Shown: in pieces, positions 394 to 64,000 of the stretch
Layout of the letters: every line of letters starts with the position of its first letter
Position numbering within the stretch: the stretch's first letter is position 1
From: a virus
Lineage: Duplodnaviria > Heunggongvirae > Uroviricota > Caudoviricetes
Direction: 5' to 3' (one strand)
DNA: 64,000 nucleotides
IMG/VR virus record: IMGVR_UViG_3300025916_000008
Location: 40,845-104,844 of that record
Program-made: the position numbers and the translations under genes
The notes under the pieces: model-generated
Told to the model about the DNA's origin: nothing
The model's database searches: none
Seen by the model: the letters and a program-made list of their open reading frames with translations, nothing else

Positions 394-586
394 TGCTTCC
401 GGGGTCGACCCAGACGCCTATGCCGCTCCAGGTAACGGCGGGCATCACCTTCCCCATCAGGAGGGCGAGGGTCCTGAGGATCTCGTCCCCTGGAACCCCG
501 TGAGCCTCAAGGAACACCCCCCGCCCCTGGAACGGGTCCTCGGCGGCCATCTCCTCCCGGGAGCGCTCCGTCCACCACGCGGTCAT
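239..586 (-). CDS. hypothetical protein (3' part doubtful)
   Basis: ATG overlaps the stop of the 583-4320 gene (ATGA coupling). The N-terminal ~70 aa are protein-like; the C-terminal Arg/Pro/His-rich tail looks like a wrong frame and overlaps 79-393. Confidence 0.3.
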   Translation of the reverse strand: MTAWWTERSREEMAAEDPFQGRGVFLEAHGVPGDEILRTLALLMGKVMPAVTWSGIGVWVDPGSSETDAGLIRERWDGGKASDDRRPHHAAGERRGDHRLHRPAGDRAARSQGKA

Positions 587-3500: not shown

Positions 3501-4320
3501 CCCAGTCGGGGTCAAACTCGTAGTCCTCCGGGTGATAGTGGTCGGCGCTGCCCTCGAAGTGCTCTTGCGAGTGCCGGTGGGGCAGCGAGATGCGCCAGAA
3601 GTCATTAGGAACGGAAGATCCGCTATACCCGTGCTCCTCCGCCATGTGATGGTGCAGCTCGGCGTAGTCCTCATCGCTTATCGCAGCAGTGAACGCCCCG
3701 ATCGGCAGTCCCGGCCCGTTGCCGCTGGAGATCCCCTCGGGGTACATCCCGACGGTGGCGGCGTTCTCGTTCTCCTTGTCGCCGCCCTGGTCCTTCGGGA
3801 GGGCCTGGTTCCACCTGTCGTCGCCCTGGCCCTCCTGCGACTCGTCATCGTAGGCGTTCGGGTCCTCGGCTCGGGGGACGGTGCCGTGCTCGGGGGCGTC
3901 GCCGGCGTCGTCCACGTGCGTGCCGTTGATGTCGGTGGCGTGGTGGAGCATGCCGAAGAAGCCCTGCGCCTCCTCGATGGCCGCCAGGCGGGCCAGGACG
4001 GGGCTCTGGCCCATCAGCGGGGGCGGTGCCTCCTCCTGGGGGCCGAGGTTGTCGCGTGCCCACTGCTGCTCTCCCGGCTCCGCCCAGTACATGCCGGTGT
4101 CGCCCTCGCCGCCGTTGTAGTCCCCGTTGCGGGCGTCGTGCTCCGCGTCGTACGCCTCGGCGGCCCGCCGCATCCCGATGACCGTGATCTGGCTGCCGGG
4201 GTCAGGCCGGTCGGTCAGGATGTCGCCCAGCTCGGGGTAGTCGGCGGAGGCAGTGCGGTGCTGCTCCTCCGGGTCCTCGTCGTGCTCCTGGGACAGCCGG
4301 GTTGAGTGCCTCGGGGTCAT
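583..4320 (-). CDS. large (1245 aa) acidic/His-rich protein with SWIM-type zinc finger (CxCx19CxH); possible virion or injected protein
   Basis: Long ORF with an AGGAGG SD upstream of the ATG at 4320. CGC...CSH motif at residues 627-651 (nt ~2368-2442). PDN-type low-complexity repeats at residues 413-440. The antisense ORF 1831-4305 is Arg/Val/Leu-rich, typical of a shadow frame. Confidence 0.6.
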   Translation of the reverse strand: MTPRHSTRLSQEHDEDPEEQHRTASADYPELGDILTDRPDPGSQITVIGMRRAAEAYDAEHDARNGDYNGGEGDTGMYWAEPGEQQWARDNLGPQEEAPPPLMGQSPVLARLAAIEEAQGFFGMLHHATDINGTHVDDAGDAPEHGTVPRAEDPNAYDDESQEGQGDDRWNQALPKDQGGDKENENAATVGMYPEGISSGNGPGLPIGAFTAAISDEDYAELHHHMAEEHGYSGSSVPNDFWRISLPHRHSQEHFEGSADHYHPEDYEFDPDWEDHGGNGGYHDFIASRHEARVPWTDKERGTLHTWQESPPSSTWGDFVNSADFPLLGPGEHVVHEEPGERLGEAEAALDLPHPHDDDDSEIDQGGVEGDDGFPRVHRDAALNVHVRIDGQELKHDHDDDGPDPQPQQHEHDDPDNSLDNSRTTPDNAPDNPADKNGPEITSGQASGGGLPVTPPVTPPDGRKNPDDPGLSPDDPGHPDNWPQAGADVSETGRAYTQGSDDGKVKRGAPAPGPFSPGDGDSGGGGDQGDDPDDGDQPDDDDTPFSKDAALAMFTAAAGSPAFRFEFTAAWHDVVAKAKRIRAEGHVRITHASAGMVIGEVRGDHDTYESGIQRPVGKRMTIQYWACGCPWASFHQDKAAAARYAGRPCSHVMALQFEAQSRGMFGRSFGADAEAPAWSPQTVVVKSYPPYEGDPHAGQWREQWRAPLAHLAHREGWPYVPPVAPRDLAQHIIGHHGLDAGSVARALTRMGDPAKGDIWARAWHDAEHRNKTEHAFNHQHDAPSGLAGETRWPAAFRPEQGFSVDPYGGTPHRDFPGAERSVSLEPLPPHWSSLAPADRATVALLRAGADPGAVGALRVMAGLRATADQANSSWGSQNVSEHPTQKPYGATSPRNWDMDPGSYGFLSGPDPDNWGGIQDDSAMQMPLTNTAAHQVLVPGAPRPVPGDLHWPAVEGWQPEDQGSFGYTDRANTSGPSTSITPRDPEGIRMEEALASGTPYPFRDTVPQLDGALAELRDEPEPALPSTTGDEEIEATAAADGTIGGGSAATGQGQGAAEDIAALGEFGAARRMYLHHLAGTPMGDLARETWPQAQQPSPVGQEPGMGSGDEYLSPGDPSIQTVGNQQWSGGGADSDETAVPAGQPQGQIDDIVAAFQRSAAARGYAGDSRPAVADGDIAAAARAHLSKTADVLPQAEAEELIREGAGSRARNLDLLRLEGTHYEDADEDLGKRGISLDDYDDDVMFA
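3000..3084 (-). repeat. short periodic repeat (ttgtccgg every ~11 nt) inside the 1245-aa gene
   Basis: Encodes a PDN/DNS low-complexity segment; an adjacent direct repeat of ggcggagtgaccggc encodes PVTPPVTPP. Confidence 0.5.
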
Positions 4321-9950: not shown

Positions 9951-12227
9951 TCACCCCCGCGCGGGGGCGTAGCTCTCGTAATCCACCAGGTCGCCGTCGT
10001 CCTCGGTCACGCCGAGGCGCGAGCGGATTCCGACGTGCGGCGGGTCCTGGTAGCCCCGGATCGACGGGCCGGAGAACCAGGTGCCCTGTCCCTTCTGGGC
10101 CTGCGCCTCGCTTTCTGCCTGGTGCGCCGCGAGGACGGGCAGGCCGTCGCTCCCGGAGGCGGCGATATCCCCCTCCAGGGCGGCCTCGTTGACGGCACGG
10201 GCCAGGGCTGCCATGCGGCGCACCCGGTCGGAGCGGCGCATCAGCGCCCCCTGCTTCGGCATGCCGCGCTTGCCGGCCTTCGGCATCGGGCCGCGCTGCT
10301 CGGAGGACTCCGGCGGTACCTGCGGCATGCCGCCCGCGTCCTCTCCGGCGATCTCGCCCTCGCTCGGGGCGTTGACCGGGCCGCCCGCCTGGGCCTCCAT
10401 CTCCTCGGCCATCTGCTGGTCCTCGGGGGTGGGCGCGAGGTCCGGCAGGGGCAGCGGCTGGACGCCCATCCGGTCGATCATCATCTGCTGGGCGGCCAGG
10501 GCCGGGGGAACGCCCTCCACCTGGGCGACGGGGGAGAAGTCGGCCATGAGGTCCGGCGGGACGGGCAGGCCCTGGTTGCGCAGCTCGACGAACGCCTGGC
10601 GGCGGGTGCGGGCCTGGGCGATGATGTCGGCGACCGCCTCGTCCTGGCTCTGCTCGCGCTCCTCGTCCAGGTCGACCCCGAGCCCCCGCGTGCGCGTGCG
10701 AGCGGAGATCGGGATGCCGGAGGCGCGCAGCGCCTCGGTGAACTGGCGGGTGATGTCCTCGTCCCGGAAGTTGAGGACCTGGCACTTGAGGTCGGGCACC
10801 AGGAGCTTGGGCTGCTCGGTGATCCGCTTCTCGCCGGTCTCCTCGTCGGTCTCCAGGACCTCCTCCATGATCACGAAGCGGCGGCCGGAGCGCTCCTCGT
10901 AGTCATAGTGTTCCTGCGCTTCAGCAACAATGAGCATCCGCTTGCGCATGTGCCTCATGAGCATCTGCTGGTAGGTGGTCATGAGCTGCTCGACGAGCTG
11001 CTTGTTGAGCGCGTCGGCGGCGTACGTCTGCCCCTCGCCCGCCCCGGTGAGGAACGTCCTGGACAGGCCGAACACCTGGAGAACCCGGTCCTCGATCCGC
11101 TCGAAGTCCATGCTCAGGTCAGGCATGTTCTCCCGGCCGAACACCGGCTCGATCTCCACCGCGAAGTTGTGGATCAGCGCCCGGAAGTCGCCCGCGAGGG
11201 CGGCGTCCAGCGCCATCTCGAAGTTCTCCAGGTCATCGTCGGTGGGAATCCACGGGACGCTGGTGCCGAGGTCGGTGGCGGACGCGCCGAGCTTGCACAG
11301 GATCAGCGGGGTGTAGAGCCGGTCGGCGATCGAGTCGAGCGCGGTGTTGAGCATCTCCTGCTGGAGCATGGAGCGCATCGCCCGGGTGAGCAGCGGCAGG
11401 CCCCGCAGGCTGAAGGTGTCGCCCTTGAACCGGAGCTGGCGCAGCAGGATGTTGCTGACCGGCATGAATGCGTTCTCGGCGGTGTAGGCGGCCAGCTCCG
11501 GGTACTCCTGGACCAGCCGGTTGTACTCCCAGGCCGGCTGGCGGGTGGTGAGGATCTGCCGGATCGTCCACGGCAGCCGGGTGAAGTACCGGGGCTCCTT
11601 CAGGAACGGGCTGCGCTCCACCTTGATGTCGTCGGCGTTGAGCAGCTCCTCGTCGTCCCAGATGCCCAGGTCCTCGTTGAACGTGGCGAACGGCCACGCC
11701 TCCCCGGTGATGTAGTACTCGCGGCCGATGTCGACGAGGAACTCGCCGTAGTCAAGGCCGTCGTCGCCGAAGAACAGGTCCTGGTAGAAGTCGGTGAGCC
11801 GCTGGTCCTTGCACTCCAGGTGCGCCCCGACGACAGGGAACTTGCTGAAGATGTCGACGCAGGAGCCGACGATCGGGTCGGTCTGGTAGAGCAGCCGGCA
11901 GAACGCCCGGACCTTCGCCAGCTCCTCGTTCTGGGAGAAGTCGTAGGGGAGGTTGTTCTGCCGCCAGTAGAACAGCGGGTCCCTGGGCCGTCCGGTGGCG
12001 AACTGGATGTCGGAGAAGCCAGACCCCCCGGCTCCCCCGGCCGTGTAGGCGGTGCGGCGGCCGACGGACGCCTGCCGGGCGTTGATCCGCCGGTTCTTGC
12101 GGGCCTCGGCGACCTCGGGGCTCATCTGCTCGGAGCTGAGCGCACCGACGCCCATCGTCCGGCCGAGCTGCCTGGCTACTGACGCCTGCCGGGCGGTGCC
12201 CGACCCCGGCCTGTACGCGACTCGCAT
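9951..12227 (-). CDS. large (758 aa) structural-module protein, function unassigned (portal or connector-like or tail component candidate)
   Basis: Long ORF with an AGGAGGT SD; globular N-terminal 550 aa then an acidic Pro/Gln/Ala-rich C-terminal tail; position next to the fibre genes. Confidence 0.5.
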   Translation of the reverse strand: MRVAYRPGSGTARQASVARQLGRTMGVGALSSEQMSPEVAEARKNRRINARQASVGRRTAYTAGGAGGSGFSDIQFATGRPRDPLFYWRQNNLPYDFSQNEELAKVRAFCRLLYQTDPIVGSCVDIFSKFPVVGAHLECKDQRLTDFYQDLFFGDDGLDYGEFLVDIGREYYITGEAWPFATFNEDLGIWDDEELLNADDIKVERSPFLKEPRYFTRLPWTIRQILTTRQPAWEYNRLVQEYPELAAYTAENAFMPVSNILLRQLRFKGDTFSLRGLPLLTRAMRSMLQQEMLNTALDSIADRLYTPLILCKLGASATDLGTSVPWIPTDDDLENFEMALDAALAGDFRALIHNFAVEIEPVFGRENMPDLSMDFERIEDRVLQVFGLSRTFLTGAGEGQTYAADALNKQLVEQLMTTYQQMLMRHMRKRMLIVAEAQEHYDYEERSGRRFVIMEEVLETDEETGEKRITEQPKLLVPDLKCQVLNFRDEDITRQFTEALRASGIPISARTRTRGLGVDLDEEREQSQDEAVADIIAQARTRRQAFVELRNQGLPVPPDLMADFSPVAQVEGVPPALAAQQMMIDRMGVQPLPLPDLAPTPEDQQMAEEMEAQAGGPVNAPSEGEIAGEDAGGMPQVPPESSEQRGPMPKAGKRGMPKQGALMRRSDRVRRMAALARAVNEAALEGDIAASGSDGLPVLAAHQAESEAQAQKGQGTWFSGPSIRGYQDPPHVGIRSRLGVTEDDGDLVDYESYAPARG

Positions 12228-18003: not shown

Positions 18004-18816
18004 ATGACCCGCAGGAGGATTATCGCCGGGTGCGAGTGCTCCGGGATGGTGGCGAACGCCTTCGCCGAGCTGCTCGGCTGGGAGGCATACTCCTGGGACA
18101 CCGAGCCGGGCGAGATGCCGGACCGGGACTACCCGAATGGCGGAACCTACCGGCATGTCCAGGGCAACATCCTCGACGACCCGGAGGCGGGCACGCTCGG
18201 GGCGTTCAACTGGTATCACCCGGTGAACCGCCAGCGGGCGCAGGAGGCTGACGAGGCCGAGAGCGCACGCGGCGAGAGCATCCCGCTGTGGGACTTCGGG
18301 GCATTCTTCCCGCCGTGCACCCACCTGAGCCAGGCGGGCGCGGTGTGGTGGAAGCACAAGGACGCCACCCGGGGCGGCGACGGCCGGATGCAGGAGGGCG
18401 CGGCGTTCTTCATGCAGATGGTGAAGCTGGGCCGCGCCACGTGCACGTACTCCGCCGTGGAGAACCCGGTCGGGGTGATGGGCCTGCCCAGCCAGTCGTG
18501 CTACTACCGGCGGCCCGACCAGGTGGTGCAGCCGCACATGTTCGGCGACCCGCTGATCAAGGCGACGTGCTTCTGGCTGGAAGGGCTGCCCCTCCTGACC
18601 GCCGACAGGCCGGTCGAGCCGACCGGACGGGTGGCGACCGGCGGCGGGAGCTGGCGCACCGACCAGCGTCACGGGCGCGGGGCGAACAACGGCCACGAGG
18701 ACGCCAAGGGCCGCAGGTTCCGGCAGCGCGAGCGCAACCGGACCCTGCCCGGCCTGGCCAGGGTGATGGCCGAGCAGTGGGGCACGTGGATCGAGTCGCA
18801 GGAGCGCGCCGCGTGA
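18004..18816 (+). CDS. DNA cytosine-5 methyltransferase-like protein (degenerate motifs)
   Basis: FPPCTHLSQAG resembles motif IV (PCQxFSxAG) but with Thr in place of Gln; AVENPVGV resembles the ENV motif; N-terminal IAGCECSGMV resembles motif I. Confidence 0.5.
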   Translation: MTRRRIIAGCECSGMVANAFAELLGWEAYSWDTEPGEMPDRDYPNGGTYRHVQGNILDDPEAGTLGAFNWYHPVNRQRAQEADEAESARGESIPLWDFGAFFPPCTHLSQAGAVWWKHKDATRGGDGRMQEGAAFFMQMVKLGRATCTYSAVENPVGVMGLPSQSCYYRRPDQVVQPHMFGDPLIKATCFWLEGLPLLTADRPVEPTGRVATGGGSWRTDQRHGRGANNGHEDAKGRRFRQRERNRTLPGLARVMAEQWGTWIESQERAA

Positions 18817-54007: not shown

Positions 54008-54305
54008 TGAAGCCTCCCAAGGCTTCCGTGGCGAACTGGCCCTCCTCGTCCGGGTAGATCCCGTAAGCGGCCAGGATCGCGGCCGAGAGCTTGTCGGCGG
54101 CGGTGGCGGACAGCCGCCGCAGGAAGGCCCGCGCCTCGTCGAAGGCCGGGGACACGCCGTCCCGGGCCACCTTCCCGTCGAGCAGCTCCAGCATCGCGTC
54201 CGCCTGGCGCAGGTCCTCCGCGAGCGGCCAGATGTCTTCCCGGCCAGGCCACTTGCGCGGGTCCGGTCCCTCGTGGACCGGGACCTCCTCCGGGTTCGCG
54301 CTCAC
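53952..54305 (-). CDS. hypothetical protein
   Basis: GTG at 54305 is GTGA-coupled to the UDG stop; 117 aa. Confidence 0.4.
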   Translation of the reverse strand: MSANPEEVPVHEGPDPRKWPGREDIWPLAEDLRQADAMLELLDGKVARDGVSPAFDEARAFLRRLSATAADKLSAAILAAYGIYPDEEGQFATEALGGFSGDGDGKGTGDHLRRVQG

Positions 54306-54874
54306 GCGGCCGGGACCTTATATACCGAGGCGAGGGCTTCGATGGCCGCGTTCTTCCACTCGGGGACCTCGCGAGCTGAAAGCCGCATGATGTAGCTCGG
54401 GTGAGGCAGCGCCAGGAGCCTGCGGCCGTTCAGCTCGTGCCAGTGGAAGCGAGACTCCTCGAACCGGCCGATGGAGTCAGCGCCCAGGCCGCGCCAGGCG
54501 ACCGACCCGGCGGCGACGACCACGACGGGATTGACGGCATCCAGCTCGGCGGCGAGGCGCGGCTGCGACGCGGTGACCTCGAACGGGTAGGGAGTGCGGT
54601 TCCCGGGCGGACGCCACAGGACCACGTTGGTGACGTAGCACAGCTCCCAGGGGACCTCGGCCCTGGCGAAGATGTCCTGGAGGAGCTTCCCGGCGGGGCC
54701 GGTGAACGGCCTCCCGGTGCGTTCCTCCGTAGCGCCCGGGGCCTCGCCGACGACGGCGAGCGCGCCGTGCGGGCCGTGCCCGCGCACCATCTCCCGCCCC
54801 TCGGCCAGCCGGGCGAAGAGGGGATTGCCCGCGTACGCCTCGTACAGCGCGTCCAGTGACTGCTGCTCGCTCAT
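54302..54874 (-). CDS. udg: uracil-DNA glycosylase, family 4
   Basis: GEAPGATEERTGRPFTGPAGKLL (family-4 motif A) and LALPHPSYI (HPS motif B) at correct spacing. Confidence 0.85.
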   Translation of the reverse strand: MSEQQSLDALYEAYAGNPLFARLAEGREMVRGHGPHGALAVVGEAPGATEERTGRPFTGPAGKLLQDIFARAEVPWELCYVTNVVLWRPPGNRTPYPFEVTASQPRLAAELDAVNPVVVVAAGSVAWRGLGADSIGRFEESRFHWHELNGRRLLALPHPSYIMRLSAREVPEWKNAAIEALASVYKVPAA

Positions 54875-56401: not shown

Positions 56402-56655
56402 GGCGTCACTCCTGGGATCTTGGTGAAGTCGGCGAACGGGTCGGGGTCGCGGGCCATCTTCTCCCAGCCGGGGTTGTCCTTCTCCCACCGGGCTCGGCGG
56501 CGGATCGCCTCCGGGAGGGTCCTCGGGCAGTGCGGGCCGGGGTGCAGCTCGGCCAGGGAGCACCAGTGGTCGATGAGGCCGTCGGGGGTCTGCTGTTCCC
56601 GGCAGGTGCGCTGCGGGAACTCGGCGAACTTCACCTCGGGCAAGTCGTCGCTCAT
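56398..56655 (-). CDS. hypothetical Cys-containing protein
   Basis: Met111 of ORF 56398-56985 falls on the ATGA overlap with the giant gene stop; GGAGGG SD. Confidence 0.4.
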   Translation of the reverse strand: MSDDLPEVKFAEFPQRTCREQQTPDGLIDHWCSLAELHPGPHCPRTLPEAIRRRARWEKDNPGWEKMARDPDPFADFTKIPGVTP

Positions 56656-59600
56656 GCAGCCCTCCCTGTCAGCGGGAAACTTACCACGTCGTCCCCTCGC
56701 TTCACGTGCAGGTGAGTGAACCTCAGCGGCACCGCCGGGTGCGGCTCCGGCAGCTCGTCGCCCTCCTGCATGTAGGTCAGCGTGATGTGCGGCTTCCAGT
56801 CCTTGTGCTCGCTGGCGGAGAGGTCCTCCAGCAGGCGGCGCAGGCGGCCTACCCCGCCGATGTAGGCCGGGACGTAGGCGGGGACCTTGCCGTCGCTGCT
56901 CGCGCTGGGCGGGAAGATGCCGATCCCCCTCAGCACCCCCTCCAGCGGCGGGCACTGGGCGGCGGCGGCCCTGGCGCGCCTGCACGCCTCCTCGAACGCC
57001 TTGTCGCTGAGACCGGACCCGAGGTAGACGATGGTGACGTGGTGGTCGTCCACCCCGCCGGGCACCGGCCGCACAGTGCCCGGCGGGAGATCGAGGTAGA
57101 TCATCCCGCTGCGGGGCTTCAGGTCATAGCCTGCGGCGGCAGTCCGGCCAGGGCGCGCCTCCCGGCAGCCGGGGCACCCCAGCTCGTGCGCGAGGCCCAG
57201 GTCGTGCCGCTCGCGCACGACGCGCAGCGGGTGAGCTGAGCGCCTGTCCCCCTCGAACTCGCCCTGGGGGTCGTCCTCGTGCGGCCCGGTCGGCTCTACC
57301 TCGTACACGTGCGGGTAGGTCGTCCAGCCGGGAGAGTCCTCCTCGTTCAGGTACCTGGAGCCTTCCTCTGCCCACCTGGCCGCGTCATGCGGGGACCTGG
57401 TGAAGAAGACGTGCGGCAGCGGCCCGTCGTCCGCGTTCACCGGGTCATGGCCGGGCTCAATGAGGTCGTCCTCGGCGAGCCGGAACGGCGAGCCGTGGTA
57501 CCAGCGCTCCACGGCCCCGCCGCGCGCCCACGGCTTCAGGGTGGCCTCCTCGTTCCTGCGGAACTCGTCTTCGCGGTCGAGGCGCTCCTGCTCGAAACGC
57601 CTCTCCATGTCGGCCCGCTCGTGAGCCTTGCGCCGCTCGGGGTGCCGGGCGTACTCGGAAGCCTGCGTGGCGCGCTCGGCCGGGGACAGGCCGGTCAGCG
57701 GGAAGCTGTGCACCTCGTCGCCCCGGCGCACGTGCACGTGGGTGAACGACACCCCTACCTGCGGGTGCGGCCCCGGGTCGGGGTCGTTGCCGGTGAGCTG
57801 CGCCCTGGTGACGTGCGGGGTGTACTGCTCGTAGTGCGCCCGGTCGAACTCGCCGAACTCCTGCTGGAGCCGGTGCACGCCGGGGATGCGGGCCGGGACC
57901 ACCGCGACGCGGCGCTTGTCCGACGGAGCGCCCGGCGGGAACGTCAGGTGGCCGCCGAGCGTGCCCCGCAGCGGCGGGTACCGGGTGGCCGCCTCCCTGG
58001 CCCGGTCGACCACCTTGGCGAAGTCTTCATCGCCGATCGCCCTTGGCAGGTAGGCCAGCGCGATGTGGTGGCCGCCCTCCTGCCCCTGGTACGGCTCGAC
58101 CGTCCCGTGGGGAACGTCGAGGTACACCATCGCGTTGCCCGGGGTCCTCCTCGGGCGCTGCTGGCCGCCGGAGGGGGCTGCCGCCTCGCGGCGGATGCCG
58201 ACGTCGGAGTAGTCGGTGGCCCCGCTGCCCCGGTAGGCGACCGGGACGTGGCGGCCGACCGGGTGCCAGGTCCATCCCGGCCCGTTGCGCTCCGGGTGCA
58301 GCGGGGCGATGGCCCCGCGCTCGTCGGCGTCCGGCTCGCCTACCCAGGCTCCCTCCACGTGCACGGTCTTCCCAGGATGCAGCCGGACCTCCTTCTCCGA
58401 CGGCATCGACTCGTGCTTCCCGCTCCACATCGGGTGGGACCGGGGGATCGCCTGCGCCTGCGGGTGCTCGACGCGGGCCTGCCAGATCACCGGGTAGCGG
58501 CCCTCGTGCTGCTGGCCGGTGATCACCTGGTGCGGGACCACCGACCAGTGGATGCCCACCGAGTCAGGGTCGTGCGGCGAGTCGTCCTCGAAGTCGCGCC
58601 GCTCGCCGCGCCAGATCCGGGTGCCGGGCACCGGGTTCCTGGCCAGGTCGAGCTGCGGGTCCCGGTGGCGGCTGTACGGGGCGGCGACGGCCTCCTCCTG
58701 CTCGGGCGGCATCGGCGGCAGGTGCGACTGGTCCGGGGGCATGTGCGGGCTCCGGCCGCTCCCCGGAAAGTCGCGGGACAGCCCGGTGGCGTGGCGGTGG
58801 TGCGCCACCTGCGTCACCGCGTCGGGGTAGCGGTCGCGCATCTCCTGCGCCGCGTCCCCGTGGCCCGCGCCGTCCAGCATCAGCGCCTGGTGCCAGACGA
58901 AGCCCCCGCCGTGATCACGGTCGTCGGGGTCCATCTGCGCCGGGTCGGGGTCCCGGTGGCCGCCGGCCTGGCTGGCACGCGCCGCCGCCTGGAGGGCGTG
59001 CCGACGGATGGTGACGTGGTGCGCCGCCTCGTGCGCCAGGGTCAGCGCGTTGTCCTGCTCCGGGTGCAGCATGACGCCCAGGCTCCCGTCCTCGCCGGTC
59101 GCCGGCTGGGACACCCGCTGCTCCGGGTGCGGGTGCGGAGCCGCCCACGCCCGGCCGCCTTCCTCGTCGGGGATGATGAAGGACGCCCGGTGCAGCATCT
59201 GCCGCAGCACTGGGGTGCGCTCCTCCCCCAGCGGCCGGGTCAGGTCCGGGTAGGCGCTGCGGAGGTGATCCTGGAGGATGGACACCACGGCCCGGTTCGG
59301 CTCGCGCTCGGCCTGCTGCTGCCACTGCGGTGCGGCGGCGGCGGCGGTGCGGCGGCCGGACGGCGGCGTCTCGTCCGGTTCCTCGTAGTCCTCGTCCAGC
59401 GGGTGGCGGGCGAGGCGGTGCGGCTGCGCGCCGGGGATGAACAGGTGCCGGTGGTCAATCCAGTCGCCGACGCGCCGGACCTTTTGCAGCAGCGGCTCCC
59501 CGTCGTAGCCGACGCCGGACATCTCGCCTCGCACCAGGTGGCCGGTCTCCCCGGGCCGGTCGTTCCCCTGGCGGCGGTTCTTCTCGGCCTTCAGGACGCG

Positions 59601-62129
59601 CCCCCGCATCTCCTCCTGCGGGTCGTTGCCGTACTCTTCGGTAGGGATGTCGCAGTCCTCGTCGCAGCTCTCGTCGTGCTCGTGGTCCCGGTCCAGCCCG
59701 TGGCCGATCACCGGCTCCCCGTGCCGGTCCAGGTCGTAGGCGCTGACTCCCCACTCGTGGTAGCCCCCCGCCGGGCTGAACGACCGCTCGTTCTCCGGCC
59801 AGTGACCGAACCGCAGGTAGACACCGCTGGTTTCGGAGCCGCTGGTGTCGGGCTGCCAGGAGGCCGTCTTCGGCTCTGCGGCTGCTGTCGTACCGGGCAG
59901 CTCGCCGCCGTGCTGGCGGTGGTAGTCCAGCACCCGGTCGCGCACCTCGTCGGGCTCGTCGTGCTCGCTGGCGTCCTCCCAGGTGCGCTGGTGAGGCTCC
60001 GGCTCAGCCCGCCACGGGGCGATGTGCTCGACGTGGGTGACCTCGATGTCGTCGGGGTCGGCGATGGCCGAGATGCTCTTCGGCGCGCCCCTCGGCCAGT
60101 CCTGGTGCTTCTGGATGGCCTTCGTGGATGCCTCGCCGCCCCGGGTGGCGTCGGTGTCGTACGGTCCCTCCACGCCGTTGCCGTAGGTGATCCCGTGGTG
60201 CCCCTGCTCGCGCAGGTGCGCCTTGAAGCCCGCGAGGATCTCCGGCATGTGCGGGTGCCACTGGAGGAGCGACTGCGCCTTCTGCCCCAGTCGCCAGCGC
60301 TGTCCCGGGTCACCGGGAACCTGGGAGAAGTCGCGGTGCGTGCCCTCCTGGTCGGAGTAGTTCCACGCCATGGTCCCGTTGAGCTTGTCGTCGTGCCAGT
60401 GCGGGTAGTGCCCTGAGGCCCAGTCCGCCATCGCGATGTTGAGGTGGTCCTCGGTCGGGAAGTGAGCAGGGCTGCCGCCGCGCAGCCGGGCGTGCACGAT
60501 CGCGGCGGAGGTACTGGAGATGCCGCCCCCGGCGAACTTGTGGCCCACCTCGTGCAGAGGGCTGAAGTGGACGCCCAGGTGCTGGTTCGGCTGCGTCCAC
60601 CCGGAGTTCATCACCCGCTGGTCCGGCGGGAGGGCCGCCCGCTGCGCCTCGTCGGAGTACTTGCGACGGCCGCTGAAGTCCGGCTCGCCCCGGGTCCCGT
60701 GGAACCAGATGTACGCCCAGTCGTCCCGCCCGCCGAACTGCGGGTCTCCGTGGTAGGGGTTGCGCAGGTACCCCTGGGCCGCCGTCCTGGTCAGCGCCAG
60801 CTCCCTGATGTGGTCCAGGACGTGGCGCGGGGCGTAGGCCAGCCACTTCTCGGTCAGGTTGGCAGGGTCGTCCCAGCCGGTGCCCTCCGGGGAGAACGCC
60901 TGCGAGCGCCCGGCGTGCAGCCGGTCCCACAGCGCCCTGGCCTCGCGGGTGCGGGCCGGCTCGGGCATCCGCAGGATCGCGCGGGCCTCGGCCGCGACTG
61001 CCCTCGCCTGGGCGAGGAAGGCCGGGTCGAAGTCGGCGATCGTGTGCCCCGGCAGGTGCGGCGGCTGCACCGACCAGCGGCCGTGCGTCAGGTCGTAGGC
61101 GGCGTACGGGCGGATCTGGGTGACGTCCCAGGCCCGCTGGTTGCAGAACCCGGTCAGCGCCCACGTGCCGCCGAACGACGGCCGCCAGTGGTCGTCGTTG
61201 AAGTGCCGGTGGAACGCCGCGTTCAGCACTGAGGCCGCCGTCCCGGCGTCCGTCCCCTCGAAGGCGCTGTGCCGCTGCGCCTCGCGCAGGTCGATCGCGA
61301 CGATGACGTCCAGGTCGCGGGCGGTGCCGTTCGGCCGGGGGCCGGCCCACTCCGACACCGCGCCGCCGAGCAGGTACACCCGCGTCCAGTCCTGCCAGTC
61401 GCTTCCGGCCAGGCCGGAGTCGGTCCGGATGCACTGGTCGAGGCGCGTCATCACGCAGTGACGCACGTCCGGCCGGAGACGGCCGTGCTCGTCGAACAGG
61501 TCCTGGTCCAGCCCGGTGGTCGGGCCGAAGATGCCCGAGCTGGGCTGCCACCGCACGGCCTCCCTCGGCGGGTGCACCCGCTCCAGGTGGGCGGCCGACG
61601 GGACGACGGCGGAGATCGAGCCGTAGTCCTCCCCGTCGTTCCGGTAGAAGTAGCCGCGCCGGGCCTGCCCCCGGGTGATCTGGGCGCGCATCCGGCCGTT
61701 GGCGTGCGCGTCGTCCATCGGGATGGCGGGGTGGTTGGTCATCGGGCCGGTGATCCGCACCGGGAAGATGCCCGGCCGCGCGTCCATCGGCACCTGGTGT
61801 CCGGTCGAGTACGTCGCCCGGCCCGACGGGTAGCGCGGTGCCTCCAGCTCCCGCTCGGCCCCGGTGACGGTGTAAGGCTTCAGGAGGGTCTTGCCGTACT
61901 CGCGGGTGCCGTCCCAGTCGCCTTCCAGGGGGGTCCCGATGCGGGCGTTCAGCGCCTGCCGGGCGGACTCCTCGGTGCCGACGTGAAGGCCGTAAGCCTG
62001 CCTACTCTGCTGGTCCCAGGTTCGCTCGTCCGGTGTCCCGTGGTAGAAGATCCAGTCGCTCTGCCCGGCCGTCACCGCCCTGGCGGCAGGGCGGGACGGC
62101 GCTAGCGATTTGGGCGGTGATCCTCGCAC
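56652..62129 (-). CDS. giant (1825 aa) polyvalent protein: ART-fold-like modules, HExxH zincin motif, two 2H phosphoesterase domains
   Basis: Three [FWY]HG[ST] modules at residues ~28, ~476 and ~1544. HEAAH at residues 1033-1037 (nt 59019-59033). Two tandem domains each with two H-x-T/S-x motifs at residues 1334-1480 and 1676-1825. Possible GG..S-x13-DLDV NTase motif at residues 253-275. Confidence 0.65.
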   Translation of the reverse strand: MRGSPPKSLAPSRPAARAVTAGQSDWIFYHGTPDERTWDQQSRQAYGLHVGTEESARQALNARIGTPLEGDWDGTREYGKTLLKPYTVTGAERELEAPRYPSGRATYSTGHQVPMDARPGIFPVRITGPMTNHPAIPMDDAHANGRMRAQITRGQARRGYFYRNDGEDYGSISAVVPSAAHLERVHPPREAVRWQPSSGIFGPTTGLDQDLFDEHGRLRPDVRHCVMTRLDQCIRTDSGLAGSDWQDWTRVYLLGGAVSEWAGPRPNGTARDLDVIVAIDLREAQRHSAFEGTDAGTAASVLNAAFHRHFNDDHWRPSFGGTWALTGFCNQRAWDVTQIRPYAAYDLTHGRWSVQPPHLPGHTIADFDPAFLAQARAVAAEARAILRMPEPARTREARALWDRLHAGRSQAFSPEGTGWDDPANLTEKWLAYAPRHVLDHIRELALTRTAAQGYLRNPYHGDPQFGGRDDWAYIWFHGTRGEPDFSGRRKYSDEAQRAALPPDQRVMNSGWTQPNQHLGVHFSPLHEVGHKFAGGGISSTSAAIVHARLRGGSPAHFPTEDHLNIAMADWASGHYPHWHDDKLNGTMAWNYSDQEGTHRDFSQVPGDPGQRWRLGQKAQSLLQWHPHMPEILAGFKAHLREQGHHGITYGNGVEGPYDTDATRGGEASTKAIQKHQDWPRGAPKSISAIADPDDIEVTHVEHIAPWRAEPEPHQRTWEDASEHDEPDEVRDRVLDYHRQHGGELPGTTAAAEPKTASWQPDTSGSETSGVYLRFGHWPENERSFSPAGGYHEWGVSAYDLDRHGEPVIGHGLDRDHEHDESCDEDCDIPTEEYGNDPQEEMRGRVLKAEKNRRQGNDRPGETGHLVRGEMSGVGYDGEPLLQKVRRVGDWIDHRHLFIPGAQPHRLARHPLDEDYEEPDETPPSGRRTAAAAAPQWQQQAEREPNRAVVSILQDHLRSAYPDLTRPLGEERTPVLRQMLHRASFIIPDEEGGRAWAAPHPHPEQRVSQPATGEDGSLGVMLHPEQDNALTLAHEAAHHVTIRRHALQAAARASQAGGHRDPDPAQMDPDDRDHGGGFVWHQALMLDGAGHGDAAQEMRDRYPDAVTQVAHHRHATGLSRDFPGSGRSPHMPPDQSHLPPMPPEQEEAVAAPYSRHRDPQLDLARNPVPGTRIWRGERRDFEDDSPHDPDSVGIHWSVVPHQVITGQQHEGRYPVIWQARVEHPQAQAIPRSHPMWSGKHESMPSEKEVRLHPGKTVHVEGAWVGEPDADERGAIAPLHPERNGPGWTWHPVGRHVPVAYRGSGATDYSDVGIRREAAAPSGGQQRPRRTPGNAMVYLDVPHGTVEPYQGQEGGHHIALAYLPRAIGDEDFAKVVDRAREAATRYPPLRGTLGGHLTFPPGAPSDKRRVAVVPARIPGVHRLQQEFGEFDRAHYEQYTPHVTRAQLTGNDPDPGPHPQVGVSFTHVHVRRGDEVHSFPLTGLSPAERATQASEYARHPERRKAHERADMERRFEQERLDREDEFRRNEEATLKPWARGGAVERWYHGSPFRLAEDDLIEPGHDPVNADDGPLPHVFFTRSPHDAARWAEEGSRYLNEEDSPGWTTYPHVYEVEPTGPHEDDPQGEFEGDRRSAHPLRVVRERHDLGLAHELGCPGCREARPGRTAAAGYDLKPRSGMIYLDLPPGTVRPVPGGVDDHHVTIVYLGSGLSDKAFEEACRRARAAAAQCPPLEGVLRGIGIFPPSASSDGKVPAYVPAYIGGVGRLRRLLEDLSASEHKDWKPHITLTYMQEGDELPEPHPAVPLRFTHLHVKRGDDVVSFPLTGRAA

Positions 62130-63994
62130 GATGCTTCCGGGGGCAGCCGCCTCACCAGGTCCTCTGCGTCCTGCGCGGCCCTGGACGCCTGGGCTGCCAG
62201 GTCGTGCACCGCGTCGCGCACCGCCGGGTGCAGCGGCATCTCCGACAGCATCTCCGACATGGCCGCCAGGCCGTCGCGGAGGGCCAGGAACAGGTAGGGC
62301 AGCGCCCGTGCCATGCCGGCCGCGTCCCCGGGCTCCTCAGGCTCCCAGGCGGCCAGCAGGTCGCGCACGTCGGCCGCCGCGCCCAGGGCAGGCGGCGGGG
62401 CCACGTCGTAGACCGGGATCAGGGCGGCCCTGGGCGCGGCGAAGTGGGAGACCACCGGGTGGGAGCCGAACACCGGGTCGTGCCCCTCGGGGTAGTCGTG
62501 CTGGTGCTCTGCCCACTCGCTGTCGTGCATGCTGGCGTGCAGCTCGCTCGGGCTGCCGCCGTACCCGGCCGAGGATGACCCGTGCTGGGTCCTGATGTGC
62601 TCCTCCAGCTCCTCGCGGGAGCGCGGCGGGGCGGCGTAGGGGACGTGCTGCCAGGTGGCGGCGGTGCCGGCGTCCACGCCGTGCTCGTTGGGCGGCTGCT
62701 GGAAGCCCATCTGCGGCTCCCACTGCGGGTGCCCGGCGGGCATCGTGTACTGGCGGCGCGGCGGCACGACGGGAGCCCGGTTCACCCCGTGGACCTCCTC
62801 GTCGGGGTGCTCCTCCTCGTGCATGTCCTGCGCGTGGTCCTCGTCCTCGGCGTGGTAGACGCGGGTGTGCTGGCCCCCTTCGTCGTCGTGCGAGTGCACC
62901 TCGAAGTGGTGCTCCGGGTCGCCCTCCCGCAGCTCCTCCGCGTCGGGTCCCTGGTAGCCCTGGTGGCCGGGCAGGTGGCCCTCCGGGTCCATCACCGTGT
63001 AGAGGTGATGGTCGAGGTACCGGCGGTTCTGCTCGTGGTCGCGCTCGTGCTCCGCCTCCAGGTCGGGCTCGTCGTGCCGCAGCTCGTTGATGTCGTACCC
63101 GTGGTGCTCCACCAGGTGGTGCTCGGCGTCGAAGTCGGTTCGCGGCCCCCAGTGCATCGTGACGTACTGGCCGTGCGGGGTGTGGCGGTAGCTGCCTGTG
63201 TCGGGGAGGGTGTGCTCCCCGTGGTGCTGCTCGTGCGCCTCCTCCAGGGCCTGGGCGTAGGGGTCGTGTCCGTGGGTGTACGTCGGCAGCTCGTACTCCG
63301 GCATCGCGTGCTGGGGGAAGCCGTGGTCCTCCCGCAGGTGGCGCTCGGCGTCGGCGAAGTCGACGCTCCTCCCGTGGAAGTGCGCCGAGCCGTTCTCCCG
63401 GTGCTCGGCTACCGCGTCGTCGTGCGCCTGCCGCTCCTCGTTCTCCGCCTGCCACTCGGGGTGGTGGGCGGTGTCGGACAGCATCCGCTTGTGGTCGGCC
63501 CACCCGGCGGGAGCGCCGTGCTGCTCGGCCGAGCGGGCGCGCTCGTCCTCCTGCTCGTGCACCCGGCGGTGCAGTGCGTCCATGCCAGCGTAGAGCTGCC
63601 GGTCATGGTGCGGGTGGTCCCACGGCACTGAGTCGCGCACCTCCTGGAGGCCGCGCCGTACCCCGCCGCTGCCGGCGTGGAACCCGGTGAGGTGCTCCTC
63701 CAGCGAGTTCAGGCGCGGCTGGGTGTTTTCCCGGTCCAGGCCCCGGTAGAAGTCGAAGTGCCCCGGCGGCTGGTGCTCCCCGCGTTCCTCGAAGTGCGCG
63801 ACCACGGCTGCTGTCACCTGGGTTCCCTCCTCGTCGTCCGGCACGCGGCGGATGACCCGCAGCGGATGCTCCGACTTCCACTCGTCGCCGTTGTAGCCCA
63901 TCGTCACGTCGCCGGTCGGCTCTACCTCGTACACGTGCCCCCCGGCGTCACGGGCGTACGTCCGTGCACCTGCCAGGCTCGTCGTGAAGTGCAC
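62102..63994 (-). CDS. His/Asp/Glu-rich large protein, 5' end beyond window (partial)
   Basis: ORF open to the window edge; its N-terminal HVYEVEPTGD...HPLRV matches the end of the third ART-like module of the giant protein. Confidence 0.5.
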   Translation of the reverse strand: MHFTTSLAGARTYARDAGGHVYEVEPTGDVTMGYNGDEWKSEHPLRVIRRVPDDEEGTQVTAAVVAHFEERGEHQPPGHFDFYRGLDRENTQPRLNSLEEHLTGFHAGSGGVRRGLQEVRDSVPWDHPHHDRQLYAGMDALHRRVHEQEDERARSAEQHGAPAGWADHKRMLSDTAHHPEWQAENEERQAHDDAVAEHRENGSAHFHGRSVDFADAERHLREDHGFPQHAMPEYELPTYTHGHDPYAQALEEAHEQHHGEHTLPDTGSYRHTPHGQYVTMHWGPRTDFDAEHHLVEHHGYDINELRHDEPDLEAEHERDHEQNRRYLDHHLYTVMDPEGHLPGHQGYQGPDAEELREGDPEHHFEVHSHDDEGGQHTRVYHAEDEDHAQDMHEEEHPDEEVHGVNRAPVVPPRRQYTMPAGHPQWEPQMGFQQPPNEHGVDAGTAATWQHVPYAAPPRSREELEEHIRTQHGSSSAGYGGSPSELHASMHDSEWAEHQHDYPEGHDPVFGSHPVVSHFAAPRAALIPVYDVAPPPALGAAADVRDLLAAWEPEEPGDAAGMARALPYLFLALRDGLAAMSEMLSEMPLHPAVRDAVHDLAAQASRAAQDAEDLVRRLPPEASCEDHRPNR

Positions 63995-64000
63995 CCGCTG

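What the first reader, a model, noticed from the sequence alone, without database searches (positions are those of the whole stretch)
56652..62129. 1825-aa polyvalent giant protein combining ART-fold-like, zincin, NTase-like and two 2H phosphoesterase modules
Reading the translation I see an HEAAH zincin motif in the context TLAHEAAHHV at residues 1033-1037. There are two tandem ~150-aa domains, each with two H-x-[TS]-x motifs (HHIALAYL/HVHVRRG; HHVTIVYL/HITLTY) as in the LigT/CPDase 2H superfamily. Three modules begin [FWY]HG[ST] (WIFYHGT, IWFHGTRG, WYHGSPF); the third is followed by LPHVFFTRSPHDAARWA, which resembles the HG[TS] ... HV.L[ST] layout of Tpt1/KptA-type ART-fold enzymes. Multi-domain giants of this kind match the described class of phage polyvalent proteins that are packaged and injected. 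An ART/Tpt1-like domain together with 2H domains is mechanistically coherent: Tpt1 produces ADP-ribose 1'',2''-cyclic phosphate, and 2H cyclic phosphodiesterases hydrolyse it. This suggests an RNA-repair or NAD-dependent nucleic-acid modification activity.
Basis: partly seen in the sequence, partly recalled or inferred. Interest (0 to 1): 0.85.

Follow-up and report, generated by a model that had tools for sequence, protein, structure and literature searches.

The report
Giant multi-enzyme phage polyvalent protein
This 1825-residue gene of a large high-GC (Streptomyces-type) phage encodes a "polyvalent" protein that strings together four ADP-ribosyltransferase-fold modules, two 2H phosphoesterases, a zincin protease-like module and two unidentified modules. 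It is a rich new example of a class of phage effector already described, not a new kind of system.

Summary
The ORF is real: 56652..62129 on the minus strand, 1825 aa, GC3 0.93, with an identical protein in a JGI metagenome.

Supported:
- Two 2H domains (Pfam PF13563/PF02834).
- An ART domain at aa 1543-1645. It belongs to the Arr (rifampin-ART) family, not Tpt1/KptA.

New here:
- A fourth ART, D6 (aa 1138-1320), looks pertussis/cholera-toxin-like, with invariant R and ExE.
- The motif [KR]-T-A-[AS] marks six of the eight module junctions.

Not confirmed: the "NTase-like" module D2 rests on a motif with non-canonical spacing only.

More than 100 giant homologues shuffle the same modules and add NUDIX, GNAT and ParB. 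They lie on ~160-kb viral contigs in conserved synteny. This is the hallmark of Iyer and Aravind's polyvalent proteins.

Virion packaging, injection and proteolytic processing are inferred, not shown. The Tpt1-plus-CPDase RNA-repair reading is not supported as stated, although Arr followed by 2H is the commonest adjacent module pair.

Verdict: new member of a known kind, moderate interest.

The parts
56652..62129 (-). Whole ORF, 1825 aa, polyvalent protein. Module order: D1-D2-D3-D4-D5-D6-2H-Arr-2H.
61554..62066 (-). D1, aa 22-192. ART-fold module with no Pfam family. Conserved motifs are YHGT (H30), LHVGT (aa 48-52) and YxN..ED (E167/D168).
60774..61553 (-). D2, aa 193-452. The most widespread module, fold unknown. 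It has invariant G255, S259, D272 and D274 (LLGGAVSEW...ARDLDVIV), which is NTase-like at motif level only.
   Evidence: No Pfam hit. No PDB hit with the profile. 532 cluster representatives, many of them standalone proteins of 275-480 aa without any Pfam domain.
59880..60767 (-). D3, aa 455-750. A divergent relative of the ART-PolyVal (PF18760) ART domain. Conserved motifs are WFHGT (H477), VHFSP and YGNGVEG (E654).
   Evidence: In homologue P0076, PF18760 at 1207-1418 overlaps the BLAST match to aa 515-676. hhalign of genuine PF18760 copies against the D3 alignment gives 94.2% probability, E 1.1e-7. The query itself has no direct Pfam hit.
59334..59873 (-). D4, aa 753-932. Conserved module of unknown function, with a weak DUF6098 resemblance.
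   Evidence: PF19593 E 0.0011, 19 bits, below the cut-off of 27. No PDB hit. Present in 29 homologues.
58755..59324 (-). D5, aa 936-1125. Zincin-like metallopeptidase fold, with HEAAH at aa 1033-1037 (window 59019-59033) on the long helix that follows a three-stranded sheet.
58170..58718 (-). D6, aa 1138-1320. Invariant R1174 lies in strand 1, HW[ST] (S1196) in strand 2, and E1245-x-E1247 before strand 5.
57684..58142 (-). 2H phosphoesterase 1, aa 1330-1482. Variant subfamily with HH[IV]ALAYLP plus PHVTRAQL, conserved in 11 orthologues.
   Evidence: PF13563 E 1.1e-5 for the segment alone, 26 bits against a cut-off of 27. phrog_2659 E 3e-10. Motif conservation.
57186..57503 (-). Arr-like ART module, aa 1543-1648. 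Motifs are WYHGS, HVFFT (Phe where Arr-2 and most homologues have Tyr) and VEPTGPHEDDP.
   Evidence: PF12120 E 1.5e-8, 35 bits against a cut-off of 25. NF033144 scores 32 bits against a cut-off of 130. ARR-2 (9iba) E 3e-6, with alignment. Homologue columns.
56655..57137 (-). 2H phosphoesterase 2, aa 1665-1825. Canonical motifs H1697-V-T-I and H1781-I-T-L.
   Evidence: PF02834 E 3.7e-7 and PF13563 E 4.3e-7, both above cut-off. Acb1 PF23474 scores only 18.5 bits against a cut-off of 27.
62102..64000 (-). C-terminal 632 aa of an upstream giant gene, cut by the window end. It overlaps the start of the target ORF by 28 nt and begins inside another Arr-like module.
   Evidence: ARR HMM E 1e-14. Syntenic contigs carry a 2147-2484 aa protein at this position.

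Best explanation
The gene encodes a polyvalent effector protein, in the sense of Iyer, Burroughs, Anand, de Souza and Aravind 2017, of a large (~160 kb) actinobacterial (Streptomyces-type) phage or phage-plasmid.

Shown:
- It is a chain of nine independently shuffling modules.
- Four of them have the ADP-ribosyltransferase fold: D1 (a new family), D3 (ART-PolyVal-like), D6 (R-S-E, pertussis-toxin-like) and an Arr-family module.
- Two are 2H phosphoesterases and one has a zincin-like fold with an intact HEAAH.
- Two, D2 and D4, remain unidentified.

Inferred from the established biochemistry of these superfamilies:
- The protein is an NAD+/ADP-ribose-centred toolkit used early in infection.
- The ART modules consume NAD+ to ADP-ribosylate host proteins, nucleic acids or small molecules.
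- The 2H modules hydrolyse 2',3'- or 1'',2''-cyclic phosphates, 2'-5' oligoadenylates or cyclic-oligonucleotide immune signals. They probably act together with the adjacent Arr-like module, because Arr followed by 2H is the commonest adjacent pair in the family.
- The zincin module, or a phage protease acting in trans, may cut the chain at the conserved [KR]-T-A-[AS] junctions to release the modules.
- Delivery inside the virion with the DNA is the model proposed for this class. It is not shown here.
For: Phage origin:
- Portal phrog_2833, E 1e-143, at 9951..12227, and several other PHROG hits.
- Relatives lie on IMG/VR contigs of 155-166 kb.

Class membership:
- 105 homologues of 1000-3100 aa share 9-61% of the query in different orders. 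They add NUDIX, GNAT, ParB, ART-PolyVal, InPase and LPD domains.
- Synteny giant1 -> giant2 -> small genes -> UDG is conserved on 160-kb contigs.

Modules:
- 2H and Arr by Pfam, NCBIfam and PDB sequence.
- D3 by transitive Pfam and hhalign, 94%.

Coupling and junctions:
- Arr->2H is adjacent 21 times and 2H->Arr 14 times.
- The junction motif sits at 6 of 8 junctions (four strict [KR]TA[AS], two REA[AV] variants), is 14-fold above the composition expectation, and is 9-fold enriched at module N-boundaries.

Literature model: ARTs, 2H, MPTase and NTase are the listed components of polyvalent proteins, which are predicted to be packaged and injected (PMC5512222; PMC9503650).
Against: - No direct evidence for packaging. 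The gene is about 44 kb from the portal gene, next to a UDG-family gene and unknown genes, and no MuF or portal fusion was detected.
- The catalytic Glu of HExxH is lost in 8 of 27 aligned D5 copies, including most of the closest D5-D6 homologues. Peptidase activity is therefore not a conserved requirement.
- The Arr-like module has Phe at the Tyr of Arr's HIYFS motif. The first 2H has H-x-A in place of H-x-[TS].
- The junction motif is still about 9-fold above expectation in homologues without D5. If it is a cleavage site, the protease need not be D5.
- No enzymatic activity was tested.
Confidence: 0.7

Rival explanations
1. RNA-repair enzyme. [quoted passage not shown] The two 2H cyclic phosphodiesterases open RNA 2',3'-cyclic ends and hydrolyse Appr>p. 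This would counter host tRNA or anticodon nucleases.
For: - ART and 2H modules co-occur, and Arr->2H is the commonest adjacent pair.
- The KptA-2H logic is established for phages (PMC9503650).
Against: - The module next to the 2H domains is Arr-family, not Tpt1. No Tpt1/KptA family was reported for any segment.
- No RNA ligase or polynucleotide kinase module appears in the protein or among the listed domains of its homologues.
- Iyer et al. noted that the 2H versions found in polyvalent proteins never associate with RNA ligases.
Confidence: 0.12
2. A multi-enzyme protein, or polyprotein, made in the infected cell and not packaged. It acts in the cytoplasm after early transcription, like ModA/ModB rather than Alt.
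For: The gene lies far from the portal gene, in a block with a UDG-family gene and small unknown genes. No MuF, portal or capsid fusion was detected.
Against: - The class as a whole is contextually linked to virion genes (PMC5512222).
- One homologue, P0084, carries a prohead-protease domain, PF04586.
Confidence: 0.25
3. A host-benefit or antibiotic-resistance cargo. The Arr-like module ADP-ribosylates rifamycin-type antibiotics, as bona fide Arr does, and so protects a Streptomyces lysogen.
For: - Arr-family match.
- Standalone Arr genes in actinophages have been read this way (PMC9503650).
- Relatives sit on ~155-kb plasmid-like contigs of Streptomyces.
Against: - The NCBIfam Arr equivalog scores 32 bits against a cut-off of 130.
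- The module carries Tyr->Phe at the position of the Tyr in Arr's HIYFS motif.
- Homologues carry up to five or six Arr-like copies embedded in giants, which does not fit a simple resistance enzyme.
Confidence: 0.05

Closest known systems
Polyvalent proteins of phages and conjugative elements (Iyer, Burroughs, Anand, de Souza, Aravind 2017, J Bacteriol; PMC5512222)
   Same: - A giant single polypeptide with many unrelated catalytic modules.
- Module shuffling between homologues.
- Encoded by a portal-bearing phage.
- The module repertoire (ART, 2H, metallopeptidase, plus NUDIX, GNAT and ParB in homologues) is the one listed for the class.
   Different: - No MuF or portal fusion and no virion-gene neighbourhood in the window.
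- Several modules (D1, D2, D4, D6) are not matched by the Pfam families derived from that work.
- It carries an R-S-E-type ART. [quoted passage not shown]
- Arr-family ARTs occur in multiple copies in the homologues.
Arr, NAD+-rifampin ADP-ribosyltransferase (Pfam PF12120; ARR-2 structure 9iba)
   Same: About 100-aa minimal ART with the motifs YHG[ST], H-[IV]-x-F-[ST], VEPTGP.EDDP and PLR[VI]. The sequence match is significant.
   Different: - Embedded in a giant protein rather than standalone.
- Far below the NCBIfam equivalog cut-off.
- Phe replaces the Tyr of HIYFS.
- The target is unlikely to be rifamycin.
2H phosphoesterases (LigT / 2'-5' RNA ligase superfamily; viral relatives include Acb1 and the 2',5'-phosphodiesterases of RNA viruses)
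   Same: Two H-x-[TS]-x motifs in a duplicated fold, with Pfam hits above cut-off for the C-terminal copy.
   Different: - The first copy has a conserved H-x-A variant.
- No associated RNA ligase.
- The Acb1 model is matched only below its threshold.
ART-PolyVal (Pfam PF18760; Tox-ART-HYD2 clade) and phage T4 Alt
   Same: - D3 is related by profile-profile comparison.
- D1's closest viral structural analogues are ART-PolyVal proteins.
- Alt is the precedent for a head-packaged, injected ART.
   Different: - Neither D1 nor D3 reaches the Pfam threshold.
- D3 has F and E where the family description gives Y and D.
- D1 is a separate, highly conserved family.
Pertussis/cholera-toxin-like R-S-E ARTs (ArtA, PtxS1, LT, pierisin)
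   Different: No sequence-level match to any Pfam or PDB entry. It is usually fused C-terminal to the zincin-like D5.
Zincin metallopeptidases in polyvalent proteins (MPTase of ArdC, N4 vRNAP, P1 DdrB), minigluzincins, SprT/Spartan
   Same: D5 has HExxH on the helix after a small sheet, and its fold-level matches are to zincins. A role in autoprocessing has been proposed for the class.
   Different: - No Pfam match.
- The third metal ligand is not identified.
- The catalytic Glu is missing in about 30% of aligned D5 copies.

Membership tests
Polyvalent proteins (Iyer et al. 2017) | One polypeptide with multiple (2-15) unrelated effector or catalytic domains. | tested here: met
   Nine modules. 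Seven are assigned to four superfamilies.
Polyvalent proteins (Iyer et al. 2017) | Homologues show the same domains in many different architectures. | tested here: met
   Architectures of 105 homologues.
Polyvalent proteins (Iyer et al. 2017) | Encoded by a phage with a portal-terminase system, or by a conjugative element. | tested here: met
   Portal at 9951..12227, E 1e-143. Relatives are in IMG/VR. The terminase was not located.
Polyvalent proteins (Iyer et al. 2017) | Genomic link to virion genes, or fusion to MuF or portal. | tested here: not met
   The gene is about 44 kb from the portal gene. Its neighbours are a UDG-family gene and unknown genes. No MuF or portal family was reported for the protein.
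Polyvalent proteins (Iyer et al. 2017) | Packaged in the virion and delivered with the DNA. | not testable with these tools
   Needs virion proteomics.
2H phosphoesterase superfamily | Profile match to a 2H family. | tested here: met
   PF13563 scores 44.6 bits over two stretches for the whole protein. PF02834 scores 30.7 bits and PF13563 30.5 bits for the C-terminal copy alone. The first copy alone scores 26 bits against a cut-off of 27.
2H phosphoesterase superfamily | Two H-x-[TS]-x motifs per domain. | tested here: met
   Copy 2 has HVTI (1697) and HITL (1781). Copy 1 has HIAL (1355, Ala variant conserved in 11 orthologues) and HVTR (1439).
Arr (rifampin ADP-ribosyltransferase) | Pfam PF12120 domain match. 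| tested here: met
   35.1 bits against a cut-off of 25, E 1.5e-8. ARR-2 (9iba) E 3e-6.
Arr (rifampin ADP-ribosyltransferase) | Orthology to the resistance enzyme (NCBIfam equivalog NF033144). | tested here: not met
   32.2 bits against a cut-off of 130.
Arr (rifampin ADP-ribosyltransferase) | Conserved His (YHG), Tyr (H-I-Y-F-S) and Asp (EDDP). That these three are the active-site residues rests on my own recollection of Baysarowich et al. 2008, a paper that could not be retrieved here. | tested here: inconclusive
   His and the EDDP motif are present. Tyr is replaced by Phe in the query but is present in most homologous copies.
Tpt1/KptA RNA 2'-phosphotransferase | Profile match to the family for the third [FWY]HG[ST] module. 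| tested here: not met
   The only Pfam and NCBIfam hits of aa 1490-1680 are Arr families.
ART-PolyVal (PF18760) | Profile match. | tested here: inconclusive
   No direct Pfam hit for D1 or D3. D3 is linked by hhalign at 94% probability, E 1e-7, and through homologues P0076 and P0058. D1 reaches only 34%.
ART superfamily (fold) | Split beta-sheet ART fold with a strand-1 H or R and an acidic residue at strand 5. | tested here: met
   D1 and D6 were tested on predicted models only.
Zincin metallopeptidases | HExxH on the active-site helix, packed against a mixed sheet. | tested here: met
Zincin metallopeptidases | Third metal ligand and peptidase activity. | not testable with these tools
   No ligand was assigned. 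The Glu is absent in 8 of 27 aligned D5 copies.
Pol-beta-fold nucleotidyltransferases | hG[GS]-x9-13-Dh[DE]h motif, a third carboxylate, and a profile or fold match. | tested here: inconclusive
   Invariant G255, S259, D272 and D274, but the spacing is 14-15 residues and no third carboxylate was assigned. There is no Pfam or PDB profile hit.
Acb1 (anti-CBASS 2H) | Pfam PF23474 above threshold. | tested here: not met
   18.5 bits against a cut-off of 27.

The most novel reading that the evidence does not exclude
The protein is a true polyprotein. The conserved [KR]-T-A-[AS] junction peptides are cleavage sites for the embedded zincin or for the head protease. Cleavage would release a battery of four different ADP-ribosyltransferases and two 2H enzymes into the host. 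D1 and D2, both widespread and absent from Pfam, would be new enzyme families. The conserved Arr-2H cassette would be a new two-step activity: ADP-ribosylation followed by phosphodiester processing of a nucleotide immune signal or a nucleic-acid end.
Probability: 0.2. Interest if true: 0.7.

Novelty: new member of a known kind. Interest (0 to 1): 0.5.

Why it matters
The protein is a compact catalogue of candidate anti-defence enzymes from a poorly known group of ~160-kb Streptomyces-type phages. None of the ten largest other proteins of the window has a Pfam match.

It also offers testable leads:
- Two large module families without annotation. D1 is ART-fold. D2 has 532 cluster representatives.
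- An R-S-E ART inside a polyvalent protein.
- A recurrent Arr-2H cassette.
- A candidate processing motif at the module junctions.

If confirmed, each would extend the known repertoire of NAD+/ADP-ribose-based phage counter-defence. The overall concept, however, is already in the literature.

Tried and rejected
- Megablast of 24 kb of the window against phages and plasmids gave no match.
- tblastn of the giant found only the D2 region, in BRock-like Streptomyces phages and in one 154-kb Streptomyces plasmid.
- Pfam on the ten largest neighbouring proteins found nothing.
- NCBIfam on the segments found only weak Arr and 2H hits.
- A combined fragment alignment of D1+D2+D3 (A2), intended for one structure job, was misaligned by global MAFFT. 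I used it only as a container for per-member Pfam scans.
- All-against-all hhalign of my module alignments showed no significant relation between D1, D3, D6 and Arr. Only 2H-1 and 2H-2 were related.
- PDB sequence and profile searches for D1, D2, D5-D6, D3 and D4 found nothing significant.
- The search of 1.84 billion representatives with the D2 profile listed only close relatives, the top 150 all below E 1e-69. It gave no bridge to a known family.
- The afdb50 fold library was not available.
- I rejected the Tpt1/KptA reading of the third module.
- I rejected HVHVRRG as a 2H catalytic motif.
- The Arr structure paper (PMC2290778) could not be retrieved. Residue roles in Arr therefore rest on my own knowledge.

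Full report
**1. The observation**

The window is uniformly high in G+C, about 0.70. The ORF 56652..62129 on the minus strand is present and encodes 1825 aa from a GTG. Codon-position GC is 0.74/0.52/0.93, the signature of a real gene in a high-GC genome. A 100% identical protein, P0001, exists in a JGI metagenome.

[FWY]HG[ST] occurs three times against 0.07 expected from shuffles. HExxH (two against 0.48) and H-x-[TS] (13 against 11) are not significant as bare motifs. Those claims therefore had to be tested at the domain level.

**2. What the element is**

A portal protein (phrog_2833, E 1e-143) lies at 9951..12227. Other ORFs hit PHROG families, including a DNA methyltransferase. There is no nucleotide-level relative among deposited phages or plasmids. 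None of the ten largest other proteins has a Pfam match.

Homologues of the giant lie on metagenomic and IMG/VR contigs of about 155-167 kb. D2-encoding loci also lie on 152-157 kb contigs of Streptomyces assemblies and on a 154,158-bp Streptomyces 'plasmid'.

Two syntenic contigs have the same order as the window. An upstream giant of 2147-2484 aa overlaps the polyvalent giant by about 30 nt. Small genes, a UDG-family gene and proteins of about 505, 573-604 and 333-337 aa follow (window genes).

**3. Anatomy**

BLAST coverage of the query by 105 homologues defines nine modules. Each appears alone or in other orders elsewhere. HMMs built from these modules give the query the architecture D1-D2-D3-D4-D5-D6-2H-Arr-2H.

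*C-terminal third.* This part is recognised directly.
- PF13563 and PF02834 match aa 1697-1800.
- PF13563 matches aa ~1355-1448.
- PF12120 (Arr-ms) matches aa 1543-1644 at 35 bits against a cut-off of 25.
- The Arr-like module aligns to ARR-2 (9iba) with E 3e-6 through YHG[ST], H-[VI]-x-F-[ST], VEPTGP.EDDP and PLRV.
- It is far below the NCBIfam equivalog threshold for the resistance enzyme.
- It has Phe where Arr-2 and most homologous copies have Tyr.
- No Tpt1/KptA family was reported for it.

*2H copies.*
- The first 2H copy belongs to a conserved sub-type with HH[IV]ALAYLP and PHVTRAQL, seen in 11 orthologues.
- The second copy is canonical.
- HVHVRRG is a conserved C-terminal strand, not a catalytic motif.

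*D1 (aa 22-192).*
- It has no Pfam, NCBIfam or PDB sequence match, even when 23 members are scanned individually.
- It is 42-69% identical across very different giants.
- An AF2 model built with 23 sequences has pLDDT 91.3.
- Against predicted viral structures the matches are weak but enriched in ART-PolyVal proteins.

*D3 (aa 455-750).*
- The query itself has no Pfam hit.
- One D3 homologue hits PF18760 at E 1.2e-4.
- In P0076 a PF18760 match above threshold overlaps the segment that BLAST aligns to aa 515-676.
- hhalign of five genuine PF18760 copies against the D3 alignment gives 94.2% probability, E 1.1e-7.

HExxH is intact in the query and in 19 of 27 aligned D5 copies. It is replaced by HHAAH and similar sequences in most of the closest D5-D6 homologues.

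*D2 (aa 193-452).*
- It is the most widespread module: 69 of 105 homologues and 532 cluster representatives. Many are standalone proteins of 275-480 aa with no Pfam domain.
- It has invariant G255, S259, D272 and D274 in a G-[GS]...D-x-D arrangement.
- The spacing is 14-15 residues rather than 9-13.
'NTase-like' remains unverified.

*D4 (aa 753-932).* It shows only a sub-threshold DUF6098 resemblance.

**4. Family-wide features**

- Homologues add NUDIX, GNAT, ParB, ART-PolyVal, InPase, LPD, PolyA-polymerase-type NTase and, in one case, a prohead-protease domain.
- Arr-like modules occur up to five or six times per protein. Arr->2H (21 times) and 2H->Arr (14 times) are among the commonest adjacent pairs, and D5->D6 occurs 12 times.
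- The motif [KR]-T-A-[AS] or a close variant lies at six of the eight module junctions of the query, at aa 189, 448, 754, 927, 1314 and 1662.
- In 104 homologues the motif occurs at 1.12 per 1000 aa against 0.079 expected from composition. It occurs at 6.8 per 1000 aa near module N-boundaries against 0.76 elsewhere. A Pro often precedes it.
- The motif is twice as dense in proteins that carry D5, but it remains enriched without D5.

**5. How it most likely works**

Shown: this is a chain of shuffling modules with four ART folds, two 2H domains and a zincin-like fold, encoded by a large actinobacterial phage.

Inferred: it acts as a polyvalent effector centred on NAD+ and ADP-ribose. ARTs modify host targets. 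2H modules remove cyclic-phosphate or 2'-5'-linked nucleotide products or signals, as Iyer et al. proposed for the 2H versions of polyvalent proteins. The zincin or a phage protease may separate the modules at the junction motif, by analogy with P1 DdrB.

Delivery with the virion is the model for the class. It is not supported by gene context here, because the gene is about 44 kb from the portal gene.

**6. Comparison and novelty**

The protein meets the structural definition of polyvalent proteins, and most of its module types are listed for that class. Four things differ:
- Module families that Pfam does not cover (D1, D2, D4, D6).
- An R-S-E-type ART. [quoted passage not shown]
- Multiple Arr-family modules coupled to 2H. 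Arr in actinophages had been noted only as standalone genes read as antibiotic modifiers.
- The junction motif.

I rate it a new member of a known kind.

**7. Verdict**

Interest is moderate. It is a good example with several testable leads, but it is not conceptually new.

Noticed in passing
window 62102-64000 (-): The upstream ORF runs off the window end and starts inside another Arr-like module (my ARR HMM, E 1e-14). Its end overlaps the start of the target ORF by 28 nt. Much of the rest is an unusually His/Asp/Glu-rich region. Syntenic contigs carry a 2147-2484 aa giant at this position with no Pfam hit, so the locus encodes two tandem giants.
   Followed up: partly
giant protein aa 189, 448, 754, 927, 1314, 1662 (window about 61551-61565, 60774-60788, 59856-59870, 59337-59351, 58176-58190, 57132-57146): The short motif [KR]-T-A-[AS] (variants REAV and REAA), often preceded by Pro, marks six of eight module junctions. 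It is 14-fold over-represented in 104 homologues and 9-fold enriched at module N-boundaries. It may be a protease processing site.
   Followed up: partly
L004-L006 (Streptomyces sp. NPDC021080, MH60, A0642 contigs of 152-157 kb); NZ_CP041653.1 (154,158 bp): Genes encoding D2 lie on ~155-kb contigs of Streptomyces isolates. One is deposited as a non-mobilizable plasmid. Two of these records, including that plasmid, match IMG/VR viral-contig entries in length and hit coordinates. This suggests extrachromosomal phage-plasmids related to the window's element.
   Followed up: no
window 54302-54874 (-): A UDG-superfamily gene (PF03167, E 7.5e-28) lies shortly downstream of the giant. It holds the same position in both syntenic contigs examined.
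   Followed up: partly
window 583-4320 (-) and 9951-12227 (-): A 1245-aa protein matches only PHROGs of unknown function (phrog_30974, phrog_2940). It lies near the portal gene (phrog_2833). None of my module HMMs matches it.
   Followed up: no
window 1-54000: None of the ten largest other proteins of the window has a Pfam match, and most have no PHROG match. The element is largely uncharacterised. A DNA methyltransferase (phrog_757) lies at 18004-18816 (+).
   Followed up: partly
giant protein aa 1483-1540 (window 57510-57683): An Arg/Glu-rich linker (ERRKAHERADMERRFEQERLDREDEFRRNEEATLK) lies between the first 2H and the Arr-like module. It may be a charged single helix or a coiled coil. This is one of the two junctions without the [KR]TA[AS] motif.
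   Followed up: no
homologue P0084 (1643 aa): One D1-bearing homologue also carries a prohead-protease domain (PF04586, Peptidase_S78) and a NUDIX domain. This is an indirect hint that some family members are tied to head maturation.
   Followed up: no
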